A DNA stretch of 21,907 nucleotides from a virus (Duplodnaviria; Heunggongvirae; Uroviricota; Caudoviricetes). The notes under the pieces are model-generated. The model worked only from the letters and a program-made list of their open reading frames with translations, ran no database searches and had not been told where the DNA came from. A program made the translations under genes and the position numbers. This document shows positions 5,025 through 14,378 of the stretch, one piece after another (positions within the stretch are counted from its first letter, which is position 1; each line of letters starts with the position of its first letter). The stretch lies in IMG/VR virus record IMGVR_UViG_2671180847_000012; one strand, given 5' to 3'.

Positions 5025-6011
5025 CTAATTTTTATTTAATGTTGGTGTGATGCGTATTTTTCTATCATAAACCATGACTTGTGATTCAGTTTTGTGCCCA
5101 CTAAATAGCTGCTTTTCTTTTGATGATCCTTCATAGTCAGAAATTCCTTTAGCTTTCAGATCATGAAATGTACAATCCAGAGGTCTTCCAAGATAGTTGG
5201 CTGCCGCTGTTCTTGCTTTTCGCCATGCCTCATTAAACCCCTTGTAAGAGTAACGCTCTCCATACATGGTTTTAATTACTGACCCTGTTTCCCCCCACGA
5301 TCTGCAAATATCAACTGCCGCGCGCAGGCGATCAGTCCACGCCTTGATCTGCTTAACTCCCGTCTTGCCCTGCTGAATAAAAATTCCTTTATCCATTATC
5401 TGCGGCCAGTCCATTTTCAAGACATCGGATACCCTCGCTGCACATAAATAAGCTATTTCCATTGCGGCTTTAACTGGCTCACTGGCGTGTTCATAAATCG
5501 CCATGTATTCCTCATCTGTGATGTAGCGATCACGCTTTGGTTTAGGGAATTTATCTACTCCAACGCAAGGATTTCCAGGAACATATCCTCGTTGGTATCC
5601 CCAACGAAATACCCGAGACATTGAACTGTGCTCATGGTTAGCTTGGACACGACTTTTCTTTCCTCTGGCATCCATATACCGCCTTACATGTTCTGGTCTA
5701 ATAGTCTTTGCTTCCGCTTCGCCAAAAACAGCAAGGAGATATTTTTCGTGGGCTAGATAATCCTTTTGAGTTCGTGGTGCCAAATCTGCATAATCGGCAC
5801 TATTGAGAAATTTCTTCCAAAGCTGGGCAAAAGTTATTCGTCTTTTTCTCCCCTCTACAATTTTTTCAAAAGCAACCCAGACATCTGCTTTTGTTGCATT
5901 GGCTGATGCAATTTTTTCTGTTGTTCCCCCTGGTTTCCAGTAGTAGCCAGAAGGGCGGAAATATACCCCCTTCGGCATCCATTCATTACCAGGTGCTCGT
6001 TTTCGACCCAT
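5025..6011 (-). CDS. Lambda-family tyrosine integrase (prophage Int)
   Basis: 328-aa ORF with segments resembling lambda Int (QQGKTGVKQIKAW, LFSGHKTESQVMVY with the C-terminal tyrosine); followed 4 nt upstream by a small xis-like gene. Confidence 0.9.
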   Translation of the reverse strand: MGRKRAPGNEWMPKGVYFRPSGYYWKPGGTTEKIASANATKADVWVAFEKIVEGRKRRITFAQLWKKFLNSADYADLAPRTQKDYLAHEKYLLAVFGEAEAKTIRPEHVRRYMDARGKKSRVQANHEHSSMSRVFRWGYQRGYVPGNPCVGVDKFPKPKRDRYITDEEYMAIYEHASEPVKAAMEIAYLCAARVSDVLKMDWPQIMDKGIFIQQGKTGVKQIKAWTDRLRAAVDICRSWGETGSVIKTMYGERYSYKGFNEAWRKARTAAANYLGRPLDCTFHDLKAKGISDYEGSSKEKQLFSGHKTESQVMVYDRKIRITPTLNKN

Positions 6012-6015
6012 AATT

Positions 6016-6240
6016 TCACTCTATAGCATCAAAGTTCATACCCGGAGTGGGCGAGAAACCTGCTGGTGGAGCCAAACGATGAATGGGATGATTTATATGA
6101 AACCAGGTCGTTTTTACAGAACCGTCCCTGCGTTCAATAAAAAAAATGCCATTCTGCGTTAAGACTTCTTTCTGTAGTGACTTTTGGGAAGACCCTGTCG
6201 CCTCTATCAGTTCTTCATCAGTCAGGAAGCGGTTGCTCAT
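6016..6240 (-). CDS. Putative excisionase (Xis-like small DNA-binding protein)
   Basis: Small ORF immediately upstream of int on the same strand; the ATG at 6240 is preceded by GGAG, whereas the ORF-track start at 6255 is GTG. Function assigned by position and size only. Confidence 0.55.
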   Translation of the reverse strand: MSNRFLTDEELIEATGSSQKSLQKEVLTQNGIFFIERRDGSVKTTWFHINHPIHRLAPPAGFSPTPGMNFDAIE

Positions 6241-6866: not shown

Positions 6867-7403
6867 TTATGCGTATTTGTGTAACTCCGATAACTCGTTG
6901 AAGCGTTCCATAAACATCCCGTAGGCATGGCCCGGTGCCAGTGGAATCACGTTGAACATCTCTGTTGCCGGGATACCTTCCAGTACAGGCCAGAAAGAGC
7001 CATCATCAAGCCCGAGATCGCGGCGTTCGGTTGCCAGCATGATGAGATCGGCATATTTCACGGGCGTGCTCATAGCCTGAGGTAACCCGTATTTCTCACG
7101 GATTACGGCGTCTATTTTTTCTTCCATCCGTTTATAGTCAGGAAGGAGGCGTTTCAGTGGTGCGGGGATGTCCTGGCAATACGCTTCTGTTGCATCATGC
7201 ATTAATGCTTCAAAAGCAAATTCCTGCGGTACCAGCATGCTGCAAAGCACCGCATGTTGGGCGACGCTGTAGAAGTGTGAAAGGTGTCCTGCAAAGCGGC
7301 AGATATTTGAAAGGGAAACCGCGATATCGTTAATAACGATGTCGTCTTTATTTATCCTGTCATAATAAAAATGCTTCCCGGAAAAAGTTTTAATAAATGA
7401 CAT
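6867..7403 (-). CDS. HD-domain hydrolase, YfdR-like (5'-deoxynucleotidase family)
   Basis: Translation from MSFIKTFSGKHFYYD matches E. coli prophage YfdR as recalled, with an HD-type metal motif (ALMHDATEAY). GGAG lies upstream of the ATG at 7403; the ORF-track start at 7430 is an extension. Confidence 0.8.
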   Translation of the reverse strand: MSFIKTFSGKHFYYDRINKDDIVINDIAVSLSNICRFAGHLSHFYSVAQHAVLCSMLVPQEFAFEALMHDATEAYCQDIPAPLKRLLPDYKRMEEKIDAVIREKYGLPQAMSTPVKYADLIMLATERRDLGLDDGSFWPVLEGIPATEMFNVIPLAPGHAYGMFMERFNELSELHKYA

Positions 7404-7530
7404 TTTGTTCTCCACGTATATGCGCTGCACCGCGCTGAATTCTGGTAAAAGGAAGCCCCCACCACCCGGCGATTATTGAGTCAATTACGTTTCCATAAAT
7501 GCCCCCGCAGGGGCATTTGCAGTAATGAAA

Positions 7531-8355
7531 TCAGGCGGTGAAAGTACCAATAAAGGTTTCTACTTTGCTGTCCTTGAATTTCTCAACAAGCAGATCACGA
7601 AATTCGTTAGCCATTTCTTCCTGCACCGCCTCCAGCTGAATAATGCGCAGAACCAGTACCGGACGATCGCCAGTGATAATGCTGAGGCGTAATTTAAACG
7701 GACGTTCTTTCAGACCTTCAAACGGAATGCATTTAAATTCAAATGCCACTGGCATAATGTCTTTGGTCTTCGCTTCGACAGACTCCATCAGGGAGCGTTT
7801 GCCGCTGAAGTCATTATCTTCAAAATCAGCGGTCTGGTTTGCTTCAATCGTGATTTTACGGACCGCCGCAGCCGCTTTTGTTGCCTGAATGGTGTCACCA
7901 TTAGCATCAAAGCCCACAAGGTAGTCAGCCCAGTCTTCAATCCATTCTGCCAGTGATTTCTGGGAGTTACGCTCGCCATTAACAGACAACAGAGCAGAGA
8001 ACGGTGCTGTCTTTTTCAGTTTGAGAGTGGCGGTGTTATCTGCGTGACCTGGTTCATCAATAGTACCCAGGTTAAGCACACTGACGGCACGCATATTATC
8101 AGCATCGATAAAGCAGCGGGTGCCTTCATCTGCAAGATCTTTAGAATAACGGGTAAAGTCATCGATGCTGGCAGTGGAAAGCGCACCACGGAAACGGAAG
8201 CGATTTAAATTAAATTTTTCCAGATCATGAATGCGGAAATTCTCAGGCAATGCCACAGCATCGGCACCAATCTTACTGATAATTTCATTAACACCCTGAG
8301 CAGAAATAAGGGCATGGATTTGATTAATTGCGGTTGCGTCTAAGTTCTGAGACAT
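7531..8355 (-). CDS. YfdQ-like phage protein (DUF2303 family)
   Basis: 274-aa ORF resembling prophage YfdQ-type proteins; GAGGA Shine-Dalgarno upstream; sits in the yfdP-yfdQ-yfdR-like order. Confidence 0.7.
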
Positions 8356-8420: not shown

Positions 8421-8783
8421 TTAATGACCTGCTGCGCGGAGTTTTCCGTCAGGTTCACCGGCAAGAGTCAGTAATTGTCCCTGGTCTTCCTGCAGAATAG
8501 TCAGGCGACCACCGCGATTGACATACATCGGCGTTTCGGTGGTGTCTTCTTCGGAAATTTTCCCGCGGTTAGTCGGGCGAACATATGAGAGTTTGTGTTT
8601 GATTTTCACACGGTTCTCATCAAACGGTTCGATTTCCAGATTGAGTGAGACCTTCCCTTTGGTTTTCGTGTTCATCACACCGGAAGCGACTTCACTGAGA
8701 ACTGCGCCGATTTTGGTTTCAAATACGCCGCCGTCCAGCTCCCCGATAAATGCCTGCACATCAGTACTGCGTTCGCTAGCCAT
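8421..8783 (-). CDS. YfdP-like small phage protein
   Basis: Start placed at ATG 8783, which is preceded by GAGGAG. The ORF-track extension up to 9101 has non-protein-like composition and no ribosome-binding site. Confidence 0.6.
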   Translation of the reverse strand: MASERSTDVQAFIGELDGGVFETKIGAVLSEVASGVMNTKTKGKVSLNLEIEPFDENRVKIKHKLSYVRPTNRGKISEEDTTETPMYVNRGGRLTILQEDQGQLLTLAGEPDGKLRAAGH

Positions 8784-9251
8784 TTTGCTGCTCCTCATCA
8801 TATCGACCCTGCAAGGTCGGTTAGTTTCTCCACAAAACAGAGAAGAACACCTGCGGTGACTGCCGCCCGGATGGATTGGGTTATGAGCCCGTCGTCCGGT
8901 GATGCTCTTCTCTGTTTTGTAAAAAGGACGGTACCAGCCGGAAGCAAGGGTACAAGCTGGTACCTCCAGGACTACACACAGCATAAAGTTGTGGTGCCGG
9001 GTGCCTCCCGGTGCCTGGCGAAGGTTGCACACCAGGCGGGTGGGTATCCACAGAAGGTCGACTGTCAGCCTCAACCTTAACCCGCGTGCGCTGAGCCGCA
9101 TTCACCACAACGCTAAGGATTCTCTCTGGTTGAAAATACTTAGCTGTTATGTGCCTGCTTTTAGCCACATCAGGCGAGGTGGACCTGGTTATTCCCCAAC
9201 AACAAGGATTCGGTTAATCTGGTTATCCCCAACAACGCAAAAGGAAAAGAA

Positions 9252-9686
9252 ATGTCCGGTAATATCTATACGCTGTACAAATCCCACTGTGAAAATGTTG
9301 GAAAGTATCGGGGCATTGAAATCAGTGGGGTAGTGTCATCAGTCGAAATAAGCAAAGTTGAATCAAGGGCAACATTACTTACTCTTTTGGACCTTGTCTT
9401 ACATGAGCACCGGAAGAAATTCGGCACTCCCTATAATCAGTTGAATGGGAAAAAGGCTCTGGTTCACCTTATTCTGATGAAGCATCACTGGATGCCAAAA
9501 CAGATTAATGAGATGAAATTTGATGAACTTCTTCTTTCAATTCAGGATGAACTCACACTTGATAAAATAAGCGTAACCGCCCAGAAATTTTTAGATTATC
9601 GAGACTGGAGATCACAAATTCATCACTTTGATGATTTTGACGAAAATGAATGGGATCCTAATTTGTCTGCACAATATCTAAAGTAA
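9252..9686 (+). CDS. Hypothetical protein; counter-oriented moron gene in the PL-side region
   Basis: 144-aa ORF, AT-rich by eye, on the opposite strand to the surrounding early-left genes; preceded by two direct repeats and a GGA-containing ribosome-binding site; an intrinsic terminator follows at 9923-9946. Confidence 0.55.
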   Translation: MSGNIYTLYKSHCENVGKYRGIEISGVVSSVEISKVESRATLLTLLDLVLHEHRKKFGTPYNQLNGKKALVHLILMKHHWMPKQINEMKFDELLLSIQDELTLDKISVTAQKFLDYRDWRSQIHHFDDFDENEWDPNLSAQYLK

Positions 9687-9864: not shown

Positions 9865-9922
9865 TTCACATCTCCTCAAGTTATCAGTTACTTGTTGATG
9901 GGGACCAGATTGTTAAAGAGCT

Positions 9923-9946
9923 AAGCGTCCTGTAGGGCGCTTTTTT
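9923..9946 (+). terminator. Rho-independent terminator for the rightward moron transcript
   Basis: GC-rich stem GCGTCC/GGGCGC (one G-U pair) with a TGTA loop, followed by TTTTTT; only valid in the + orientation. Confidence 0.6.
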
Positions 9947-10029: not shown

Positions 10030-10058
10030 AATCTAACTTAACTTAGTTATTATGGCAA
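10030..10058 (-). promoter_or_regulatory. Candidate PL promoter with overlapping operator
   Basis: On the minus strand: TTGCCA, 17-nt spacer, TAGATT. The spacer contains CTAACTTAACTTAG (10033-10046), which matches the CTAA-N6-TTAG motif also found at OR. Confidence 0.35.
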
Positions 10059-10111: not shown

Positions 10112-10738
10112 TTAGAGTTCGTATTGAACTCCTTTGACTACACCAATGATAAGGCAATTACCATTGATAGGGATGTTGGGATACCGAGGATTTAATGGCA
10201 CTAAAAACTTTTGAGGGCCATCGATGACTAATTTTTTTACTGTAGCTTCGTTTGTTCCATCAAGTCGAGCGATGACTATTTTTCCATGACGAGGTTCTGC
10301 ATCTGGATCTACAATCACTGTTGCGCCTTCTGGTATTGTTGGGAGGCCATTAGGGTTAGTCATGGAGTCACCTTTAACCTCTAATGCAAATGAGTTATCA
10401 CCAATCTTTAATGATGTATCTACCCACTTGTCCACTTCACTAAACACTTCTGCTGCCCTGCACTCAGTAAACTGCCCAGCCTGAACCCACGATATTACAG
10501 GAACTCTGCGCATGTTTGTGACGAGTTTGCCTTCAAACTCAGCACCATAAAGAATGTAATCTATTGACGTATTGAAGAACTTCGCTAATTTCGAAAGTGC
10601 CTCCCCACCAGGGGTATTGATGTCTTTCTCCCAGTACCCCACAGCAACGTCGCTTACTCCACAAAATTTACCCAATTCTTTCTGGGACGTTCCGGTAACT
10701 CTTCTCAGAGCTTTTATACGCTGACCAACCGTTTCCAT
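10112..10738 (-). CDS. CI-like prophage repressor (HTH domain plus LexA-type S24 peptidase domain)
   Basis: N-terminal HTH (QKELGKFCGVSDVAVGYWEK) and C-terminal S24-like autopeptidase region (GDSMTNP...KKL); divergent from a Cro-like gene. Confidence 0.9.
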   Translation of the reverse strand: METVGQRIKALRRVTGTSQKELGKFCGVSDVAVGYWEKDINTPGGEALSKLAKFFNTSIDYILYGAEFEGKLVTNMRRVPVISWVQAGQFTECRAAEVFSEVDKWVDTSLKIGDNSFALEVKGDSMTNPNGLPTIPEGATVIVDPDAEPRHGKIVIARLDGTNEATVKKLVIDGPQKFLVPLNPRYPNIPINGNCLIIGVVKGVQYEL

Positions 10739-10760
10739 AGGAGCACCATTTCTTGAATTG

Positions 10761-10823
10761 CTAAGTAATCTTAGTTTTTATTGACCAAAGATAGATTTGT
10801 AATTAGCATCTAATAAAACTTAG
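10761..10823. promoter_or_regulatory. OR/PR region: two operator-like palindromes flanking a rightward promoter
   Basis: CTAAGTAATCTTAG (10761-10774) and CTAATAAAACTTAG (10810-10823) flank TTGACC (10781-10786), 17-nt spacer, TAGCAT (10804-10809); GGAGG precedes the cro-like ATG at 10836. Confidence 0.5.
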
Positions 10824-10835
10824 TTTGGAGGGCGT

Positions 10836-11036
10836 ATGACAACTGACGATATCGAAAGCTACTTCGGCAGTATTGAGAAAGTTGCTGCTTTTTTCGGCAT
10901 AACAACTGAAGCCGTTTATCAGTGGCGAAACCGTCCGGGCCAGTTAATTCCAAAAGGACGTGCAGCAGAAGCTGCATATAGAACTTGCGGACGGTTGCCA
11001 TTTAAACCTGAGCTTTATGAAAAATCTAATGGATAA
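10836..11036 (+). CDS. Cro-like / YdaS-type HTH regulator
   Basis: 66-aa ORF divergent from the repressor gene, with an HTH-like segment (VAAFFGITTEAVYQWRNR). Confidence 0.75.
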   Translation: MTTDDIESYFGSIEKVAAFFGITTEAVYQWRNRPGQLIPKGRAAEAAYRTCGRLPFKPELYEKSNG

Positions 11037-11969: not shown

Positions 11970-12911
11970 ATGAGCACTAAATTAACCGGCTATGTATGGG
12001 ATAGTTGCGCTGCATCAGGCATGAAATTATCCAGCGTGGCAATTATGGCCCGCCTGGCTGATTTCAGTAATGACGAAGGTGTGTGCTGGCCATCAATTGA
12101 AACTATTGCCCGTCAGATTGGCGCGGGGATGAGTACCGTCAGGACGGCTATCGCACGGCTGGAAGCAGAAGGCTGGTTAACGCGTAAGGCGCGTCGCCAG
12201 GGTAACCGCAATGCGTCGAATGTTTATCAGCTTAACGTTGCGAAGCTTCAGGCAGCGGCATTTTCTCAACTGTCAGATTCTGACCCGTCAAAATCTGACG
12301 CATCAAAATCTGACCCGTCAAAATTTGATGCGTCGAAATCTGGCAAAAAAGCGGGTTTTCACCCGTCAGAATCTGGCGGGGATCCGTCAGTAAAATCAAA
12401 ACATGATCCGTCAGATAAAAAACCTTCTCGTCCGGACGCTTCGCAACCGGACACGCAGACGGATGAACAGGATTTTTTAACTCGCCATCCTGATGCGGTT
12501 GTATTCAGCCCTAAAAAGCGCCAGTGGGGAACGCAGGATGATTTGACCTGCGCACAGTGGCTCTGGAAAAAAATCATCGCCCTGTACGAGCAAGCCGCCG
12601 AATGTGACGGCGAGGTGGTTCGTCCCAAAGAACCGAACTGGACAGCCTGGGCAAACGAAATTCGCCTGATGTGTGTACAGGATGGTCGTACTCACAAACA
12701 AATCTGCGAGATGTACAGCCGCGTCAGCCGCGATCCGTTCTGGTGCCGTAACGTGCTCAGCCCGTCGAAGTTGCGGGAAAAATGGGATGAGCTTTCCCTG
12801 CGCTTATCACCGTCCGTCAGCACGTACACCGAAAAACGCGAAGACCCGTACTTCAAATCCAGTTACGACAACGTGGACTACAGCCAGATCCCGGCAGGAT
12901 TCAGGGGGTGA
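11970..12911 (+). CDS. Replication initiator, lambda O-like (N-terminal winged-helix domain)
   Basis: 313-aa ORF with an N-terminal HTH-type region, a central repeat-rich linker that coincides with DNA iterons, and position after the CII-like gene. Confidence 0.75.
   Translation: MSTKLTGYVWDSCAASGMKLSSVAIMARLADFSNDEGVCWPSIETIARQIGAGMSTVRTAIARLEAEGWLTRKARRQGNRNASNVYQLNVAKLQAAAFSQLSDSDPSKSDASKSDPSKFDASKSGKKAGFHPSESGGDPSVKSKHDPSDKKPSRPDASQPDTQTDEQDFLTRHPDAVVFSPKKRQWGTQDDLTCAQWLWKKIIALYEQAAECDGEVVRPKEPNWTAWANEIRLMCVQDGRTHKQICEMYSRVSRDPFWCRNVLSPSKLREKWDELSLRLSPSVSTYTEKREDPYFKSSYDNVDYSQIPAGFRG
12270..12424. repeat. Iteron-like direct repeats inside the initiator gene (candidate replication origin)
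   Basis: Imperfect tandem units of about 17-18 bp built around CCGTCAAAATCTGAC, followed by an A/T-rich patch near 12471-12480; organisation analogous to ori-lambda lying inside the O gene. Confidence 0.55.
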
Positions 12912-12913
12912 TC

Positions 12914-13402
12914 ATGAGTCTGTTAAATGACGTTCAGAAATTCATTGAAGCCCATCCGGGGTGTACTTCCGGAGACATTGCGGATGCTTTTGCAGGTTAC
13001 TCACGGCAGCGCGTTCTGCAGTCTGCAAGCAAGTTACGTCAGAGTGGGCGTGTGGCTCACCGTTGTGAAGGAGATACACGCAGACATTTCCCGCGCCTGA
13101 CTGAGAGAGCGCAGGAGCCGGAACCACAACCAGTTCGTGAAACCAGACCTGTGCGCAATTTCTATGTCGGCACTAACGATCCACGGGTGATTTTGTGCCT
13201 GACCCGCCAGGCTGAAGAACTGGAGTCCAGGGGCTTATACCGTCGTGCTGCAACGGTGTGGATGGCGGCATTCCGTGAAAGCCACTCCCAGCCAGAACGA
13301 AACAATTTTCTGGCGCGTCGTGAACGGTGTTTACGGAAAAGCAGTAAGCGGGCTGCATCAGGTGAAGAGTGGTATCTCTCAGGGAATTACGTGGGGGCTT
13401 AA
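12914..13402 (+). CDS. Hypothetical regulator-like phage protein (possible PerC-like C-terminal motif)
   Basis: GGGGG precedes the ATG at 12914 (ORF-track GTG start at 12908). The C-terminal segment LESRGLYRRAATVWMAAF...RRERC resembles PerC/Pch-type activators from memory only. Confidence 0.45.
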   Translation: MSLLNDVQKFIEAHPGCTSGDIADAFAGYSRQRVLQSASKLRQSGRVAHRCEGDTRRHFPRLTERAQEPEPQPVRETRPVRNFYVGTNDPRVILCLTRQAEELESRGLYRRAATVWMAAFRESHSQPERNNFLARRERCLRKSSKRAASGEEWYLSGNYVGA

Positions 13403-14055
13403 TGAGTAATAAATATTGCCAGGCGCTGGTGGAACTGCGGAACAAACCAGCCCATGAACTGAAGGAAGTGGGCGATCAGTGGCGCACGCCGGACAACATT
13501 TTCTGGGGAATTAACACCCTGTTTGGCCCGTTTGTTCTGGATCTGTTCACTGACGGTGATAACGCCAAATGTGCTGCGTATTACACGGCGGAAGACAACG
13601 CGCTGGCGCATGACTGGTCAGAACGCCTTGCGGAGCTTAAAGGTGCTGCCTTTGGTAATCCCCCATACAGCCGCGCCAGTCAGCATGAGGGGCAATACAT
13701 CACCGGTATGCGTTACATCATGAAGCATGCCAGTGCCATGCGTGATAAAGGCGGGCGCTATGTTTTCCTGATCAAAGCTGCCACCAGCGAAGTGTGGTGG
13801 CCGGAAGATGCAGATCATATTGCTTTTATTCGCGGGCGTATTGGTTTTGAACTGCCTGCCTGGTTTATCCCGAAGGATGAGAAGCAGGTGCCGACAGGCG
13901 CTTTCTTCGCTGGTGCTATTGCTGTTTTCGACAAGACCTGGAAGGGACCGGCAATCAGCTACATCGGGCGCGATGAACTTGAGGCATGTGGTGAGGCCTT
14001 TCTGGCGCAGGTTCGCCAGCAGGCAGAAAAACTGGTCAGGGAGATGGCGGCATGA
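13402..14055 (+). CDS. Phage Dam-family DNA N6-adenine methyltransferase
   Basis: NPPY catalytic motif (AFGNPPYS); size about 217 aa; ATG overlaps the upstream stop (TAATG). Confidence 0.8.
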   Translation: MSNKYCQALVELRNKPAHELKEVGDQWRTPDNIFWGINTLFGPFVLDLFTDGDNAKCAAYYTAEDNALAHDWSERLAELKGAAFGNPPYSRASQHEGQYITGMRYIMKHASAMRDKGGRYVFLIKAATSEVWWPEDADHIAFIRGRIGFELPAWFIPKDEKQVPTGAFFAGAIAVFDKTWKGPAISYIGRDELEACGEAFLAQVRQQAEKLVREMAA

Positions 14056-14378
14056 CGACGTTAACTCAATGCCAGCAGCAGGTGCTGGATATGCTGATTT
14101 CTTATCAGAAAGAACGTGGCTTCCCGCCAACCAATCAGGAGGTGGCAACCATGCTGGGATACCGTTCAGTGAATGCAGCGGTGGAGCATCTTCGCGCACT
14201 GGAGAAAAAAGGCGTCATCACGATAAAGCGTGGCGTGGCCCGGGGCATCACGCTTCATACTGCGGTGAAGGACGACGACAGCGAGGCGGTCGGGATTATC
14301 CGCTCACTGCTTGCCGGTGAGGAAAACGCAAGGCTGCGTGCAGCCCACTGGTTACATGAGAGGGGCCTGAAAGTATGA
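14052..14378 (+). CDS. LexA N-terminal DNA-binding-domain protein lacking the S24 peptidase domain
   Basis: Aligns by eye with the E. coli LexA N-terminal domain (LTxxQQxV...PPTxxExAxxLGxRSxNAAxEHLxALxxKGVIxI...RGI) but ends at 108 aa with no Ala-Gly cleavage site or Ser/Lys dyad. Confidence 0.75.
   Translation: MTTLTQCQQQVLDMLISYQKERGFPPTNQEVATMLGYRSVNAAVEHLRALEKKGVITIKRGVARGITLHTAVKDDDSEAVGIIRSLLAGEENARLRAAHWLHERGLKV

What the first reader, a model, noticed from the sequence alone, without database searches (positions are those of the whole stretch)
8784..9251. About 470 bp GC-rich non-coding stretch with an 18-bp inverted repeat pair and nested palindromes between the yfdP-like gene and the moron
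No protein-like ORF spans this interval on either strand; the ORF-track entries there are low-complexity and Pro/Gly/Arg-rich. It contains a long inverted repeat (ACAAAACAGAGAAGAACA at about 8832-8849 and its complement with one mismatch at 8903-8920, separated by roughly 53 nt) placed about 45 nt upstream of the yfdP-like start on the leftward transcript, plus several GC-rich palindromes (for example GCCTGG...CCAGGC near 9020-9050). Neither arm arrangement is followed by a U-tract, so this is not a simple terminator. Candidate roles are a structured RNA element in the early-left transcript (processing, translational control or sRNA), a protein-binding or recombination site, or the decayed remnant of a gene.
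Basis: seen in the sequence. Interest (0 to 1): 0.5.

Follow-up and report, generated by a model that had tools for sequence, protein, structure and literature searches.

The report
Two structured RNAs before prophage early genes
The "empty" 470 bases are the folded RNA leader of a prophage's early-left genes: a small-RNA gene of a known prophage family ending in a terminator, followed by a conserved three-armed RNA matched by no Rfam family, present in about 46% of complete E. coli genomes and usually mislabelled as a hypothetical protein.

Summary
The 18-nt inverted repeat lies exactly at 8832-8849/8903-8920 and none of 200 shuffles reaches it. The stretch is G+C-rich and folds far better than shuffles (z = -7).

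Read on the minus strand, in the direction of early-left transcription, it holds two RNA modules.

- **Module A (about 9144-8921).** This is a diverged relative of the prophage sRNAs STnc100/PasD. It sits at the position, and has the ends, of the experimentally mapped sRNA-17.
- **Module B (8931-8824).** It is a three-way-junction RNA with strong covariation: 53 distinct sequences, 95% of cells paired, 104 compensatory cells against 38 expected. It matches no Rfam family. A T-run terminator lies just upstream in 123 of 125 copies. It sits ahead of whichever early-left gene comes first. One invariant hairpin is identical over 14 nt to the anticodon stem-loop of initiator tRNA-fMet.

The "frameshifted YmfH pseudogene" annotation is an artefact. 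What B does is unproven. My best guess is a cis-acting processing or translation-control leader. Antitermination and tRNA-fMet mimicry acting in trans remain open.

The parts
8921..9144 (-). Module A: sRNA domain of the STnc100/PasD/sRNA-17 kind. It has a 5' hairpin (9144-9112), a multibranch domain, a linker and a terminator.
   Evidence: Rfam RF02076 gives a full-length match at 9141-8918(-), 38.4 bits (gathering score 47), E 8e-7. The same sub-threshold hits occur at the same position in SfV, ST64B and phiES15. Bona fide copies in Fels-1 score 138, 83 and 59 bits. The position and ends match sRNA-17, mapped by RACE in an mEp460-like prophage.
8988..9111 (-). Multibranch core of A, closed by GUUGUGGUG (9111-9103) pairing with CACCACAAC (8996-8988).
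   Evidence: The inverted repeat is I5 and appears in the MFE fold. This closing helix is present upstream of B in 104 of 125 copies, while the interior varies.
8994..9013 (-). Hyperconserved 20-mer CACCGGGAGGCACCCGGCAC (hairpin CCGGG-AGGCA-CCCGG).
   Evidence: It occurs once in the window, with 0 expected by chance. It is found exactly in at least 120 IMG/VR contigs with very diverse flanks. In other copies the stem covaries to GGUGG/CCACC while the loop AGGCA is kept.
8921..8967 (-). Intrinsic terminator of module A: stem GGAGGUACCAGC / GCUGGUACCGUCC, then U5 at 8925-8921.
   Evidence: Seen directly in the sequence. A T-run immediately precedes B in 123 of 125 copies. The 3' RACE end of sRNA-17 lies at the homologous U tract.
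8824..8931 (-). Module B: conserved three-way-junction leader RNA. P1 is 8926-8901 with 8851-8826, P2 is 8899-8867, and P3 is 8865-8854.
   Evidence: Alignment A2 with RNAalifold. Covariation counts. Model R1 scores 116 bits on the minus strand against 34 bits on the plus strand. No Rfam match at E<=10. Present in 2488 of 5426 complete E. coli genomes.
8832..8920 (-).
   Evidence: Compensatory changes occur at several P1 pairs, for example CG 26 / GC 26 at one pair.
8878..8890 (-). Distal hairpin of P2, GGG-CUCAUAA-CCC. Together with the preceding C it is identical over 14 nt to the anticodon stem-loop of initiator tRNA-fMet.
   Evidence: The 77-nt tRNA sequence containing CGGGCTCATAACCC matches tRNA-Met genes at 100% in 5426 of 5426 E. 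coli genomes, median 4 copies. Sampling independent of this hairpin gave 99 of 137 copies with this exact 14-mer; most of the rest keep the CAU triplet.
8804..8820 (-). Small hairpin (P4) with a UGCAG loop between B and the yfdP ribosome-binding site (GAGGAG 8796-8791, AUG 8783-8781).
   Evidence: Present in the MFE fold. A hairpin or motif containing (G/U)UGCAG recurs downstream of B ahead of different first genes.
9145..9182 (-). Conserved block C (CCACCUCGCCUGAUGUGGCUAAAAGCAGGC...) upstream of A.
   Evidence: It is 97% identical in Cronobacter phage phiES15 and conserved in Klebsiella and Hafnia phages. It occurs upstream of B in 36 of 125 copies, sometimes directly before the linker and terminator with no A core. 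Its function was not established.

Best explanation
The interval is the structured, untranslated leader of the prophage's early-left operon, read on the minus strand. It consists of two RNA modules in series.

**Module A.** A is a prophage sRNA of the STnc100/PasD/sRNA-17 kind. It has a multibranch domain closed by GUUGUGGUG/CACCACAAC, a hyperconserved CCGGG-AGGCA-CCCGG hairpin, a U/G-rich linker and an intrinsic terminator. Transcripts that stop at the U tract give an sRNA of roughly 190-225 nt. The terminator keeps the early-left genes (yfdP, yfdQ, yfdR ... xis, int) silent in the lysogen.

**Module B.** B begins at that U tract, so it is made only when the terminator is read through. It is a three-way junction:
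- a P2 arm ending in an invariant hairpin identical to the anticodon stem-loop of initiator tRNA-fMet;
- a P3 arm of variable length.

It is followed by a small UGCAG-loop hairpin and the ribosome-binding site of whichever gene comes first.

**Shown.** The structures, their strand, their conservation and covariation, the linkage terminator-B-first gene, and the linkage to S24-type CI repressors. Published RACE and Northern data show that the homologous A element is a discrete sRNA ending at this terminator.

**Inferred.** B acts in cis on read-through transcripts. My preferred mechanism, at roughly 30%, has two parts. The long P1 is cut as an RNase III-type substrate, severing the sRNA part from the mRNA and setting the mRNA's 5' end. 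The tRNA-fMet-like arm next to the start region modulates translation initiation or stability of the first cistron.
For: **Structure and strand of B**
- In 53 distinct copies, 95.4% of cells are paired, against 41-55% when partners are slid.
- 12 pairs and 104 cells carry compensatory changes, against 37.9 +/- 6.1 cells in shuffles (0 of 500 reach the observed value) (the smaller set is).
- G-U pairs are frequent, for example U-G in 45 of 53 copies at one P1 pair. Model R1 scores 116 bits on the minus strand and 34 on the plus strand.

**B is independent of the downstream gene**
- The first downstream ORF is yfdP in 84 copies, a 305-aa ORF in 16, yfdR in 10, e14 xisE in 3, and other ORFs in single copies.

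**Linkage**
- A T-run lies just before B in 123 of 125 copies. An A-like closing helix lies upstream in 104 of 125.
- An S24-type CI lies about 900 nt upstream in 100 of 106 copies.

**Module A**
- Rfam STnc100 hit, E 8e-7, and the shared 20-mer.
- The sRNA-17 primers map to the homologous mEp460 element, from CGTTGTGGTGAATGCG to GGTACCGCTCTTTT. Northern and RACE data are in PMC7719688.
- In the wild-type lysogen yfdP had 0.49 reads although the sRNA is expressed. Reads rose to 47 when the sRNA interior was replaced by a chloramphenicol-resistance (CmR) cassette. From the standard primer design I infer that the cassette reads towards yfdP; the paper does not state this. This fits a tight terminator upstream of B.

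**Not coding**.

**tRNA-fMet identity**.
Against: - No experiment bears on B itself.
- RNase III cleavage is inferred only from helix length.
- The invariance of the P2 loops is more than a mere processing site would need.
- The tRNA-fMet-like loop is not universal. A few diverged copies have CCCUAAC or CCCACCA loops, so exact mimicry may not be essential.
- No convincing sigma-70 promoter for A was found in the window, so whether A is made in this lysogen is unknown.
- How the terminator is passed on induction is unexplained. No N-like gene was seen, and boxA is present in only 19 of 111 copies.
- The sequences are related prophages, which inflates shuffle-based statistics. The slid controls argue that the signal is nonetheless real.
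Confidence: 0.6

Rival explanations
1. B is a processive antitermination RNA, working like the put RNAs of HK022 and HK639. Once transcribed it would bind the RNA polymerase that made it and carry it through Rho-dependent or intrinsic stops in the long, mosaic early-left operon of these phages, which lack N.
For: B sits at the head of the early-left operon whatever the downstream genes are. It is linked to the immunity region. No N-like gene is annotated in this or related prophages, and boxA is absent from most copies. B has invariant unpaired nucleotides, as expected for contact with a conserved host machine. put RNAs occupy the corresponding place downstream of pL.
Against: Model R1 finds nothing in HK022 or HK639, including the annotated putL-like RNA. 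The architecture differs: a three-way junction with a 24-bp closing stem against two adjacent stem-loops of about 70 nt. B lies after, not before, the only strong terminator. No strong intrinsic terminator is seen downstream on the minus strand between 2600 and 8800. There is no second copy downstream of pR.
Confidence: 0.15
2. B, possibly released from the leader by cleavage of P1, acts in trans as a mimic of the initiator tRNA anticodon arm. It would engage a factor that recognises tRNA-fMet: the 30S P site/IF3, MetRS, or a tRNA-fMet-cleaving VapC/MvpT-type PIN toxin. During induction this would tune translation initiation or blunt a host response.
For: The 14-nt identity to the tRNA-fMet anticodon stem-loop, including the three G-C pairs and the loop CUCAUAA. 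This hairpin is the most conserved part of B. Enteric VapC toxins are reported to act on initiator tRNA, and phage tRNAs are proposed to evade tRNA-targeting defences (titles and abstracts; PMC3378870, PMC10264068). Over-expressing the e14 'ymfH' ORF, which is essentially B plus the terminator and part of A, triggered a retron toxin in a published screen.
Against: The similarity stops at 14 nt. The stem beyond the three G-C pairs is not tRNA-like. Some diverged copies lack CAU. A leader RNA would have to compete with an abundant tRNA. No binding or cleavage data exist. The match was noticed after the fact.
Confidence: 0.12
3. The stretch is a decayed protein gene: a frameshifted copy of ymfH, as annotated by PGAP. 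The repeats would then be incidental.
For: e14 of K-12 carries an intact 103-codon ORF, ymfH, over the homologous DNA (89.7% identity). RefSeq labels the window's copy 'hypothetical protein, frameshifted'.
Against: YmfH matches no Pfam or NCBIfam family. Lengths of the variable arm differ by non-multiples of 3 in 11 of 27 representative copies, and 4 have in-frame stops. The highly conserved 3' arm is therefore read in three different frames. The conservation pattern is that of paired RNA. The SfV and ST64B records leave the region unannotated.
Confidence: 0.04
4. The inverted repeat works at the DNA level, as a cruciform or protein-binding or recombination site. Alternatively it is merely a conserved junction sequence that promotes module exchange between mosaic phages.
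For: It lies at a boundary where upstream and downstream modules vary. Conserved boundary sequences are a known feature of lambdoid mosaicism (own knowledge).
Against: G-U pairs are frequent on one strand and would be A-C mismatches on the other. Compensatory changes preserve pairing in three helices, including short internal ones. The unpaired loops are more conserved than the stems.
Confidence: 0.04

Closest known systems
STnc100 (Rfam RF02076) and the related PasD sRNAs of prophages
   Same: Module A aligns over the full length of the model (E 8e-7). It shares the exact CACCGGGAGGCACCCGGCAC core, the closing helix and a 3' terminator hairpin with bona fide copies. STnc100, EcOnc27 and PasD are reported as expressed, Hfq-associated prophage sRNAs of unknown function.
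   Different: The score is below Rfam's gathering threshold (38.4 against 47). Canonical copies lie in the late region, downstream of Q, downstream of stx2B, or before the holin gene. This one lies in the early-left operon between cI and yfdP. Its interior hairpins differ.
sRNA-17 of E. coli K1 RS218 (Sun et al. 2020, PMC7719688)
   Same: Same genomic slot (between the S24-type cI and yfdP) and same strand. Same 5' start at CGUUGUGGUGAAUGCG, same CACCACAAC, linker and GGCGGUACCAG...CUGGUACCGC terminator, ending at the U tract that abuts B. It was shown by RACE and Northern to be a discrete 193-nt RNA.
   Different: The interior of the multibranch domain is unrelated in sequence. sRNA-17 lacks the 20-mer and gives no STnc100 hit. 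Its authors found no Rfam homologue and did not describe the element downstream of the terminator.
put antiterminator RNAs of HK022 and HK639
   Same: Both are cis-acting structured RNAs in the leftward early transcript of lambdoid phages without a working N. Both act, or would act, on the transcript's own polymerase.
   Different: There is no sequence or structure match. put is two adjacent stem-loops of about 70 nt just downstream of pL. B is a three-way junction of 108-135 nt placed after a terminator, roughly 1.1 kb from the candidate pL.
RNase III-processed leaders and retroregulators of lambda (N leader, sib)
   Same: A long, nearly perfect helix in an early-left transcript that forms only in read-through RNA. 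In lambda this is sib (own knowledge).
   Different: Cleavage has not been shown here. B also has a conserved junction and invariant loops that a pure RNase III site does not need.
tRNA anticodon-arm mimics in mRNA leaders (thrS operator)
   Same: A hairpin in a 5' leader that copies the anticodon stem-loop of a specific tRNA (own knowledge for thrS). Here it is the 14-mer of tRNA-fMet.
   Different: No cognate binding protein is known here. The downstream genes are unrelated to methionine or to initiation. The mimicry covers only three stem pairs and the loop.

Membership tests
STnc100 (RF02076) | Score at or above Rfam's gathering threshold (47 bits) | tested here: not met
   38.4 bits, E 8.3e-7, model positions 1-206 of 206. 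Homologues in SfV, phiES15 and ST64B score 39.5, 40.6 and 35.1.
STnc100 (RF02076) | Conserved core hairpin CACCGGGAGGCACCCGGCAC flanked by the closing helix | tested here: met
   Exact 20-mer at 9013-8994. It is shared with the Fels-1 copies that score 138 and 59 bits.
STnc100 (RF02076) | 3' terminator hairpin with a U tail | tested here: met
   Stem 8967-8926 followed by U5 at 8925-8921.
STnc100 (RF02076) | Location in the late-gene leader (downstream of Q or stx, upstream of the lysis genes) | tested here: not met
   The window copy lies between cI and yfdP. The Fels-1 copies lie between Q and the holin gene.
STnc100 (RF02076) | Expressed, Hfq-associated RNA | not testable with these tools
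   There are literature data for other copies only.
sRNA-17 (PMC7719688) | Same locus, strand and boundaries (5' CGUUGUGGUG..., 3' end at the U tract before the yfdP leader) | tested here: met
   The primers map to mEp460 L006 at about 3331-3139(-). The window has the same 5' and 3' segments.
sRNA-17 (PMC7719688) | Sequence identity across the whole 193 nt | tested here: not met
   The window and mEp460 align only over query 1-185, that is B plus the terminator. The interiors differ.
put antiterminator RNA (HK022/HK639) | Two adjacent stem-loops of about 70 nt, similar to putL/putR | tested here: not met
   Model R1 gives no hit in HK022 (L010) or HK639 (L238), which carries an annotated putL-like RNA. 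The structure described in PMC9378689 differs.
put antiterminator RNA (HK022/HK639) | Suppresses downstream terminators without protein factors | not testable with these tools
   This needs transcription assays.
Protein YmfH | Intact reading frame conserved among homologues | tested here: not met
   The window copy is frameshifted according to RefSeq. The frame shifts in 11 of 27 representative copies and 4 have stops.
Protein YmfH | Recognisable protein family | tested here: not met
   No Pfam or NCBIfam match at E<=0.01.
Initiator tRNA anticodon-arm mimic | Three consecutive G-C pairs closing the loop CUCAUAA (anticodon CAU) | tested here: met
   GGGCUCAUAACCC at 8890-8878. The 14-mer CGGGCUCAUAACCC is identical to that in the tRNA-Met genes present at a median of 4 copies in all 5426 genomes.
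Initiator tRNA anticodon-arm mimic | Feature kept across the family when sampled independently of it | tested here: inconclusive
   Of 137 copies found through the 3' arm, 99 have the exact 14-mer and 14 have CUCAUUC. A few have unrelated loops (CCCUAAC, CCCACCA).
Initiator tRNA anticodon-arm mimic | Binds a tRNA-fMet-recognising factor | not testable with these tools
   This needs binding or cleavage assays.
RNase III substrate | About two turns of nearly continuous double helix | tested here: met
   P1 has 24 pairs with two single-nucleotide bulges on each strand.
RNase III substrate | Cleaved by RNase III | not testable with these tools
   This needs a comparison of rnc+ and rnc- cells.

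The most novel reading that the evidence does not exclude
Module B is a phage-made mimic of the initiator tRNA anticodon arm. It would be released from the early-left leader on induction and would dock on a tRNA-fMet-recognising machine: the 30S P site/IF3, or a tRNA-fMet-cleaving VapC-type toxin. In that way it would reprogramme translation initiation or disarm a host response. Module A, with its GGAGG-containing loop, could contribute a Shine-Dalgarno-like partner.
Probability: 0.12. Interest if true: 0.85.

Novelty: new variant of a known kind. Interest (0 to 1): 0.62.

Why it matters
Module B is a well-supported structured RNA that I found in no Rfam family and in none of the papers read here. 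It is present in about 46% of complete E. coli genomes, with a diverged copy in the e14 prophage of K-12, and in Shigella, Salmonella and Klebsiella phages. It is currently annotated as a protein (YmfH), a hypothetical protein, a pseudogene, or nothing.

It occupies the control point of the early-left operon (excision, recombination and kil-type genes) in a large group of lambdoid phages that have no N protein. How those genes pass the leader terminator is unknown.

Recognising the unit 'sRNA - terminator - B' has three consequences:
- It links sRNA-17 and STnc100/PasD as one kind of element.
- It offers a cis explanation for the yfdP/yfdR derepression reported for the sRNA-17 mutant.
- It provides a testable candidate for RNA-based control, possibly through mimicry of initiator tRNA.

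Tried and rejected
- **Genome scan wasted.** It gave no information on taxonomic range.
- **put comparison.** The B model finds nothing in HK022, HK639, Fels-1 or phiES15, and a motif search in HK022 was at chance level.
- **Antisense target for the tRNA-like loop.** Matches to the complement in the window are at chance level.
- **Own promoter for A or B.** Consensus scans found none in 8784-9251. By eye, the GAGAAT 6-7 nt upstream of the sRNA-17-equivalent 5' end lacks a credible -35. ArcA-type GTTA repeats are present but not at consensus spacing.
- **boxA as the general antitermination signal.** A perfect rrn-like boxA exists in the window, but only 19 of 111 B copies have one within 2 kb.
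- **PasB.** It is not B, because PasB lies among structural genes.
- **RS218 record.** The RS218 genome is not in the collections. sRNA-17 was therefore placed on mEp460 from the published primers and distances.
- **Contaminated alignment.** Alignment A4 included reverse-strand matches and was discarded in favour of A5.
- **Ascertainment bias.** The first retrieval pattern for B fixed much of the tRNA-like hairpin. It was therefore re-sampled through the 3' arm.
Full report
**Context**

The window is a lambdoid prophage of E. coli, 100% identical over the interval to strain F3 and closest to SfV, SfIV and e14. Around the finding the order is:

| Feature | Coordinates | Strand |
|---|---|---|
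| yfdR | 6867-7430 | - |
| yfdQ | 7531-8355 | - |
| yfdP | 8421-8783 | - |
| interval under study | 8784-9251 | |
| ECs1072-family moron | 9252-9686 | + |
| small ORF | 9658-9864/9879 | - |
| S24/LexA-type CI | 10112-10738 | - |
| cro | 10836-11036 | + |

A candidate pL (TTGCCA-17-TAGATT, 10058-10030, minus strand) with operator-like half-sites resembling those between cI and cro lies just left of cI. Leftward early transcription therefore crosses the interval on the minus strand.

**Check of the observation**

- The inverted repeat is exactly where stated: 18 nt with one mismatch, at 8832-8849 / 8903-8920. None of 200 dinucleotide-preserving shuffles reaches it (mean 9.8, maximum 15). It extends to 25-nt arms.
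- The one mismatch is A8847 opposite C8905 on the + strand, which is a G-U wobble in minus-strand RNA.
- G+C is 0.53-0.58 against 0.36-0.49 in the flanks.
- The 406-nt minus-strand RNA from 9185 to 8780 has a folding z-score of -6.99. The last 148 nt have z = -5.5.
A third hairpin (8967-8926 on the minus strand) is followed directly by UUUUU (8925-8921), a classical intrinsic terminator.

**Module A**

*Relation to STnc100.* A permissive Rfam scan of the interval gives one meaningful hit: STnc100 (RF02076), 9141-8918 on the minus strand, full model length, 38.4 bits (gathering score 47), E 8e-7. The same sub-threshold hit recurs at the same place, between cI and the first early-left gene, in SfV, Salmonella phage ST64B and Cronobacter phage phiES15. 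In Fels-1, three bona fide copies (138, 83 and 59 bits) lie in the late leader between Q and the holin gene.

*Shared core.* All share the 20-mer CACCGGGAGGCACCCGGCAC. It occurs once in the window with 0 expected by chance. It also occurs exactly in at least 120 viral contigs whose flanks are otherwise very diverse.

*Published data on the family.* STnc100, EcOnc27 and PasD are expressed, Hfq-associated prophage sRNAs of unknown function. PasD and STnc100 are considered to have a common origin.

*Relation to sRNA-17.* Sun et al. (PMC7719688) mapped a 193-nt sRNA-17 by RACE and Northern in an mEp460-like prophage of E. coli K1. Their primers and distances place it on mEp460 from CGTTGTGGTGAATGCG... 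to ...GGTACCGCTCTTTT. That span is the closing-helix 5' strand, a different interior, CACCACAAC, the linker and the same terminator. It ends at the U tract that abuts module B.

Module A of the window therefore has the ends and position of sRNA-17 and an interior of STnc100 type. Among copies, the CCGGG-AGGCA-CCCGG hairpin covaries to GGUGG-AGGCA-CCACC with the loop kept.

*Tightness of the terminator.* In the RS218 lysogen yfdP had 0.49 reads although sRNA-17 was expressed. When the sRNA interior was replaced by a CmR cassette, yfdP rose to 47 reads and yfdR from 0 to 8.5. From the primer design and my own knowledge of the pKD3 template, I infer that the cassette reads towards yfdP; the paper does not state the orientation. 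I read the result as a cis effect, read-through of a tight terminator, rather than trans regulation.

**Module B**

An alignment with ST64B, a second Salmonella phage and a Klebsiella phage showed compensatory changes in the arms and near-invariant loops. A pattern from the loop retrieved at least 120 further viral contigs.

*Structure.* Twenty-one representative sequences fold into one consensus:
- P1, 24 pairs, window 8926-8901 with 8851-8826, reaching back to pair the terminator's U tract with GGAGAA;
- P2, 8899-8867;
- P3, 8865-8854, variable in length, giving total lengths of 108-135 nt;
- only one or two unpaired nucleotides at the junction.

*Covariation.* On 53 distinct sequences aligned to a covariance model:
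- 95.4% of cells form standard pairs, against 41-55% when partners are slid by 1-3 columns;
- 12 pairs and 104 cells carry changes on both sides, against 37.9 +/- 6.1 cells in shuffles (0 of 500 reach the observed value);
- one P1 pair, for example, is C-G in 26 copies and G-C in 26.

That alignment is fitted to the model. The independent MAFFT alignment gives the same picture.

*Strand.* G-U pairs are frequent. The model scores 116 bits on the minus strand against 34 on the plus strand. The element is an RNA of the leftward transcript.

*Identity and spread.* It matches no Rfam family even at E<=10. It is not PasB. It is not found by the model in HK022, HK639, Fels-1 or phiES15. It is present at 80% or more coverage in 2488 of 5426 complete E. 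coli genomes, with up to 5 copies, annotated as a hypothetical protein or not at all.

**Linkage of the modules**

- Of 125 copies of B, 123 have a T-run immediately upstream. An A-like closing helix (GUUGUGG...CCACAAC) lies upstream in 104.
- The first downstream ORF varies: yfdP 84, a 305-aa ORF 16, yfdR 10, e14 xisE 3, and others.
- A small hairpin or motif carrying (G/U)UGCAG recurs between B and the ribosome-binding site.
- An S24-type CI lies about 900 nt upstream on the same strand in 100 of 106 copies. The content in between is variable.
- The conserved unit is therefore [sRNA domain]-[terminator]-[B]-[small hairpin]-[first early-left gene], attached to one type of immunity region.

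**Not a gene**

RefSeq annotates the window's 8798-9108(-) as a frameshifted hypothetical protein. The homologous e14 DNA is annotated as ymfH. YmfH has no Pfam or NCBIfam family. Length differences in P3 shift the frame in 11 of 27 representative copies and 4 have stops. The conserved 3' arm is therefore read in all three frames. The conservation is that of base-paired RNA, not of codons.

**The tRNA-like hairpin**

The distal hairpin of P2 is GGG-CUCAUAA-CCC (8890-8878). With the preceding C it is identical over 14 nt to the anticodon stem-loop of initiator tRNA-fMet. It has the three consecutive G-C pairs and the loop with anticodon CAU.

I recalled the tRNA sequence from memory and then checked it. 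It matches tRNA-Met genes at 100% in all 5426 genomes, at a median of 4 copies. The four-copy count fits the initiator tRNA genes, which is my own knowledge.

My first retrieval pattern fixed much of this hairpin, so I re-sampled B through its 3' arm. Of 137 copies, 99 have the exact 14-mer, 14 have CUCAUUC, and several have single changes. A few diverged copies have other loops, including one with a covarying GUG/CAC stem. The resemblance is striking and mostly conserved, but it is not universal and it stops at 14 nt. It was noticed after the fact.

**How it most likely works**

*Shown.* Two structured RNA modules on the leftward transcript, a terminator between them, and B made only by read-through.

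*Supported by literature.* The A-type element is a discrete sRNA that ends at this terminator, and the downstream genes are silent in the lysogen.

*Inferred.* B is a cis-acting leader for the early-left operon. Of the mechanisms considered:
- I favour a processing and translation-control element (about 30%). The 24-bp P1 is a plausible RNase III substrate that forms only in read-through RNA. Cleavage would detach the sRNA part and set the mRNA's 5' end. The tRNA-fMet-like arm and the pyrimidine-rich 3' strand of P1 lie close to the ribosome-binding site.
- A put-like antitermination role (about 15%) is attractive because these phages show no N-like gene, and boxA is present in only 19 of 111 copies. 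Against it, B lies after the terminator, has no similarity to put, has no partner at pR, and no strong terminators follow it.
- A trans-acting tRNA-fMet mimic (about 12%) is the most novel reading.
- Coding and DNA-level readings are unlikely.

What lets RNA polymerase pass the terminator on induction remains unexplained.

**Verdict**

Module A is a new member of a known kind of prophage sRNA. Module B is, as far as Rfam 15 and the papers read here show, undescribed. Its structure is well supported and its function is open.

Noticed in passing
window 9910-9921 (minus strand), preceded by the hairpin 9923-9942: A perfect rrn-type boxA (GCUCUUUAACAA) follows a hairpin about 100 nt downstream of the candidate pL. 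This suggests Nus-factor antitermination of the leftward transcript. The hairpin-plus-boxA module occurs in only 19 of 111 related loci.
   Followed up: partly
window 10030-10058 (minus strand) and 10739-10835: Candidate pL (TTGCCA-17-TAGATT) overlaps AACTAAGTTAAGTTAG. The half-sites resemble the CTAAG...CTTAG operators between cI and cro. In mEp460 a comparable pL with two TTGC-N7-GCAA palindromes lies just downstream of cI.
   Followed up: partly
window 9183-9241: Two direct repeats, TTGTTGGGGA(A)TAACCAG on the minus strand (CTGGTTAT(T)CCCCAACAA on the plus strand), are spaced about 35 nt apart between module A and the moron's start codon. They may be regulator sites for the moron or for the sRNA. 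They contain GTTA motifs of the kind Sun et al. searched for as ArcA sites.
   Followed up: no
window 9145-9182; also phiES15 (L005) and Klebsiella and Hafnia phages: A 38-nt block (GCCUGAUGUGGYUAAAAGCAGGC hairpin with flanks) is far more conserved than its surroundings: 97% with a Cronobacter phage. In some phages it sits directly before the linker and terminator with no A core. Function unknown.
   Followed up: partly
L003 (SfV) 5987-6175, L004 (ST64B) 5732-5920, L006 (mEp460) 5675-5863: Related phages carry an isrK plus C4 antisense-RNA pair (P1/P7-type immunity RNAs) in the rightward operon. The window has neither.
   Followed up: no
L007 (Fels-1) 12432-12645, 12846-12968, 13969-14187: Three STnc100 copies in tandem lie between Q and the holin gene. 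The HK639 record annotates four terminators between Q and holin. Terminator-carrying sRNA modules may act as insulators of late and early-left genes alike.
   Followed up: no
e14 ymfH (L002 4002-4313, minus strand): In a published over-expression screen the 'ymfH' ORF was a trigger of the retron-Sen2 RcaT toxin. That ORF is essentially module B plus the terminator and part of A, so the active agent may be RNA rather than protein.
   Followed up: no
upstream of the A closing helix in many related loci (e.g. L133, L143, L152; mEp460 L006 3332-3350): A boxA-like motif (A)GUGCUCUC or CGCUCUUU lies 3-6 nt before GUUGUGGUG in many copies but not in the window. This could be a nut-like arrangement.
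   Followed up: no
window 8421-9101 (minus strand): A stop-free frame runs from inside module A through B into yfdP, listed as a 226-aa ORF. One Salmonella phage record extends its yfdP homologue over B in the same way. It is probably an artefact of G+C-rich structured RNA.
   Followed up: partly
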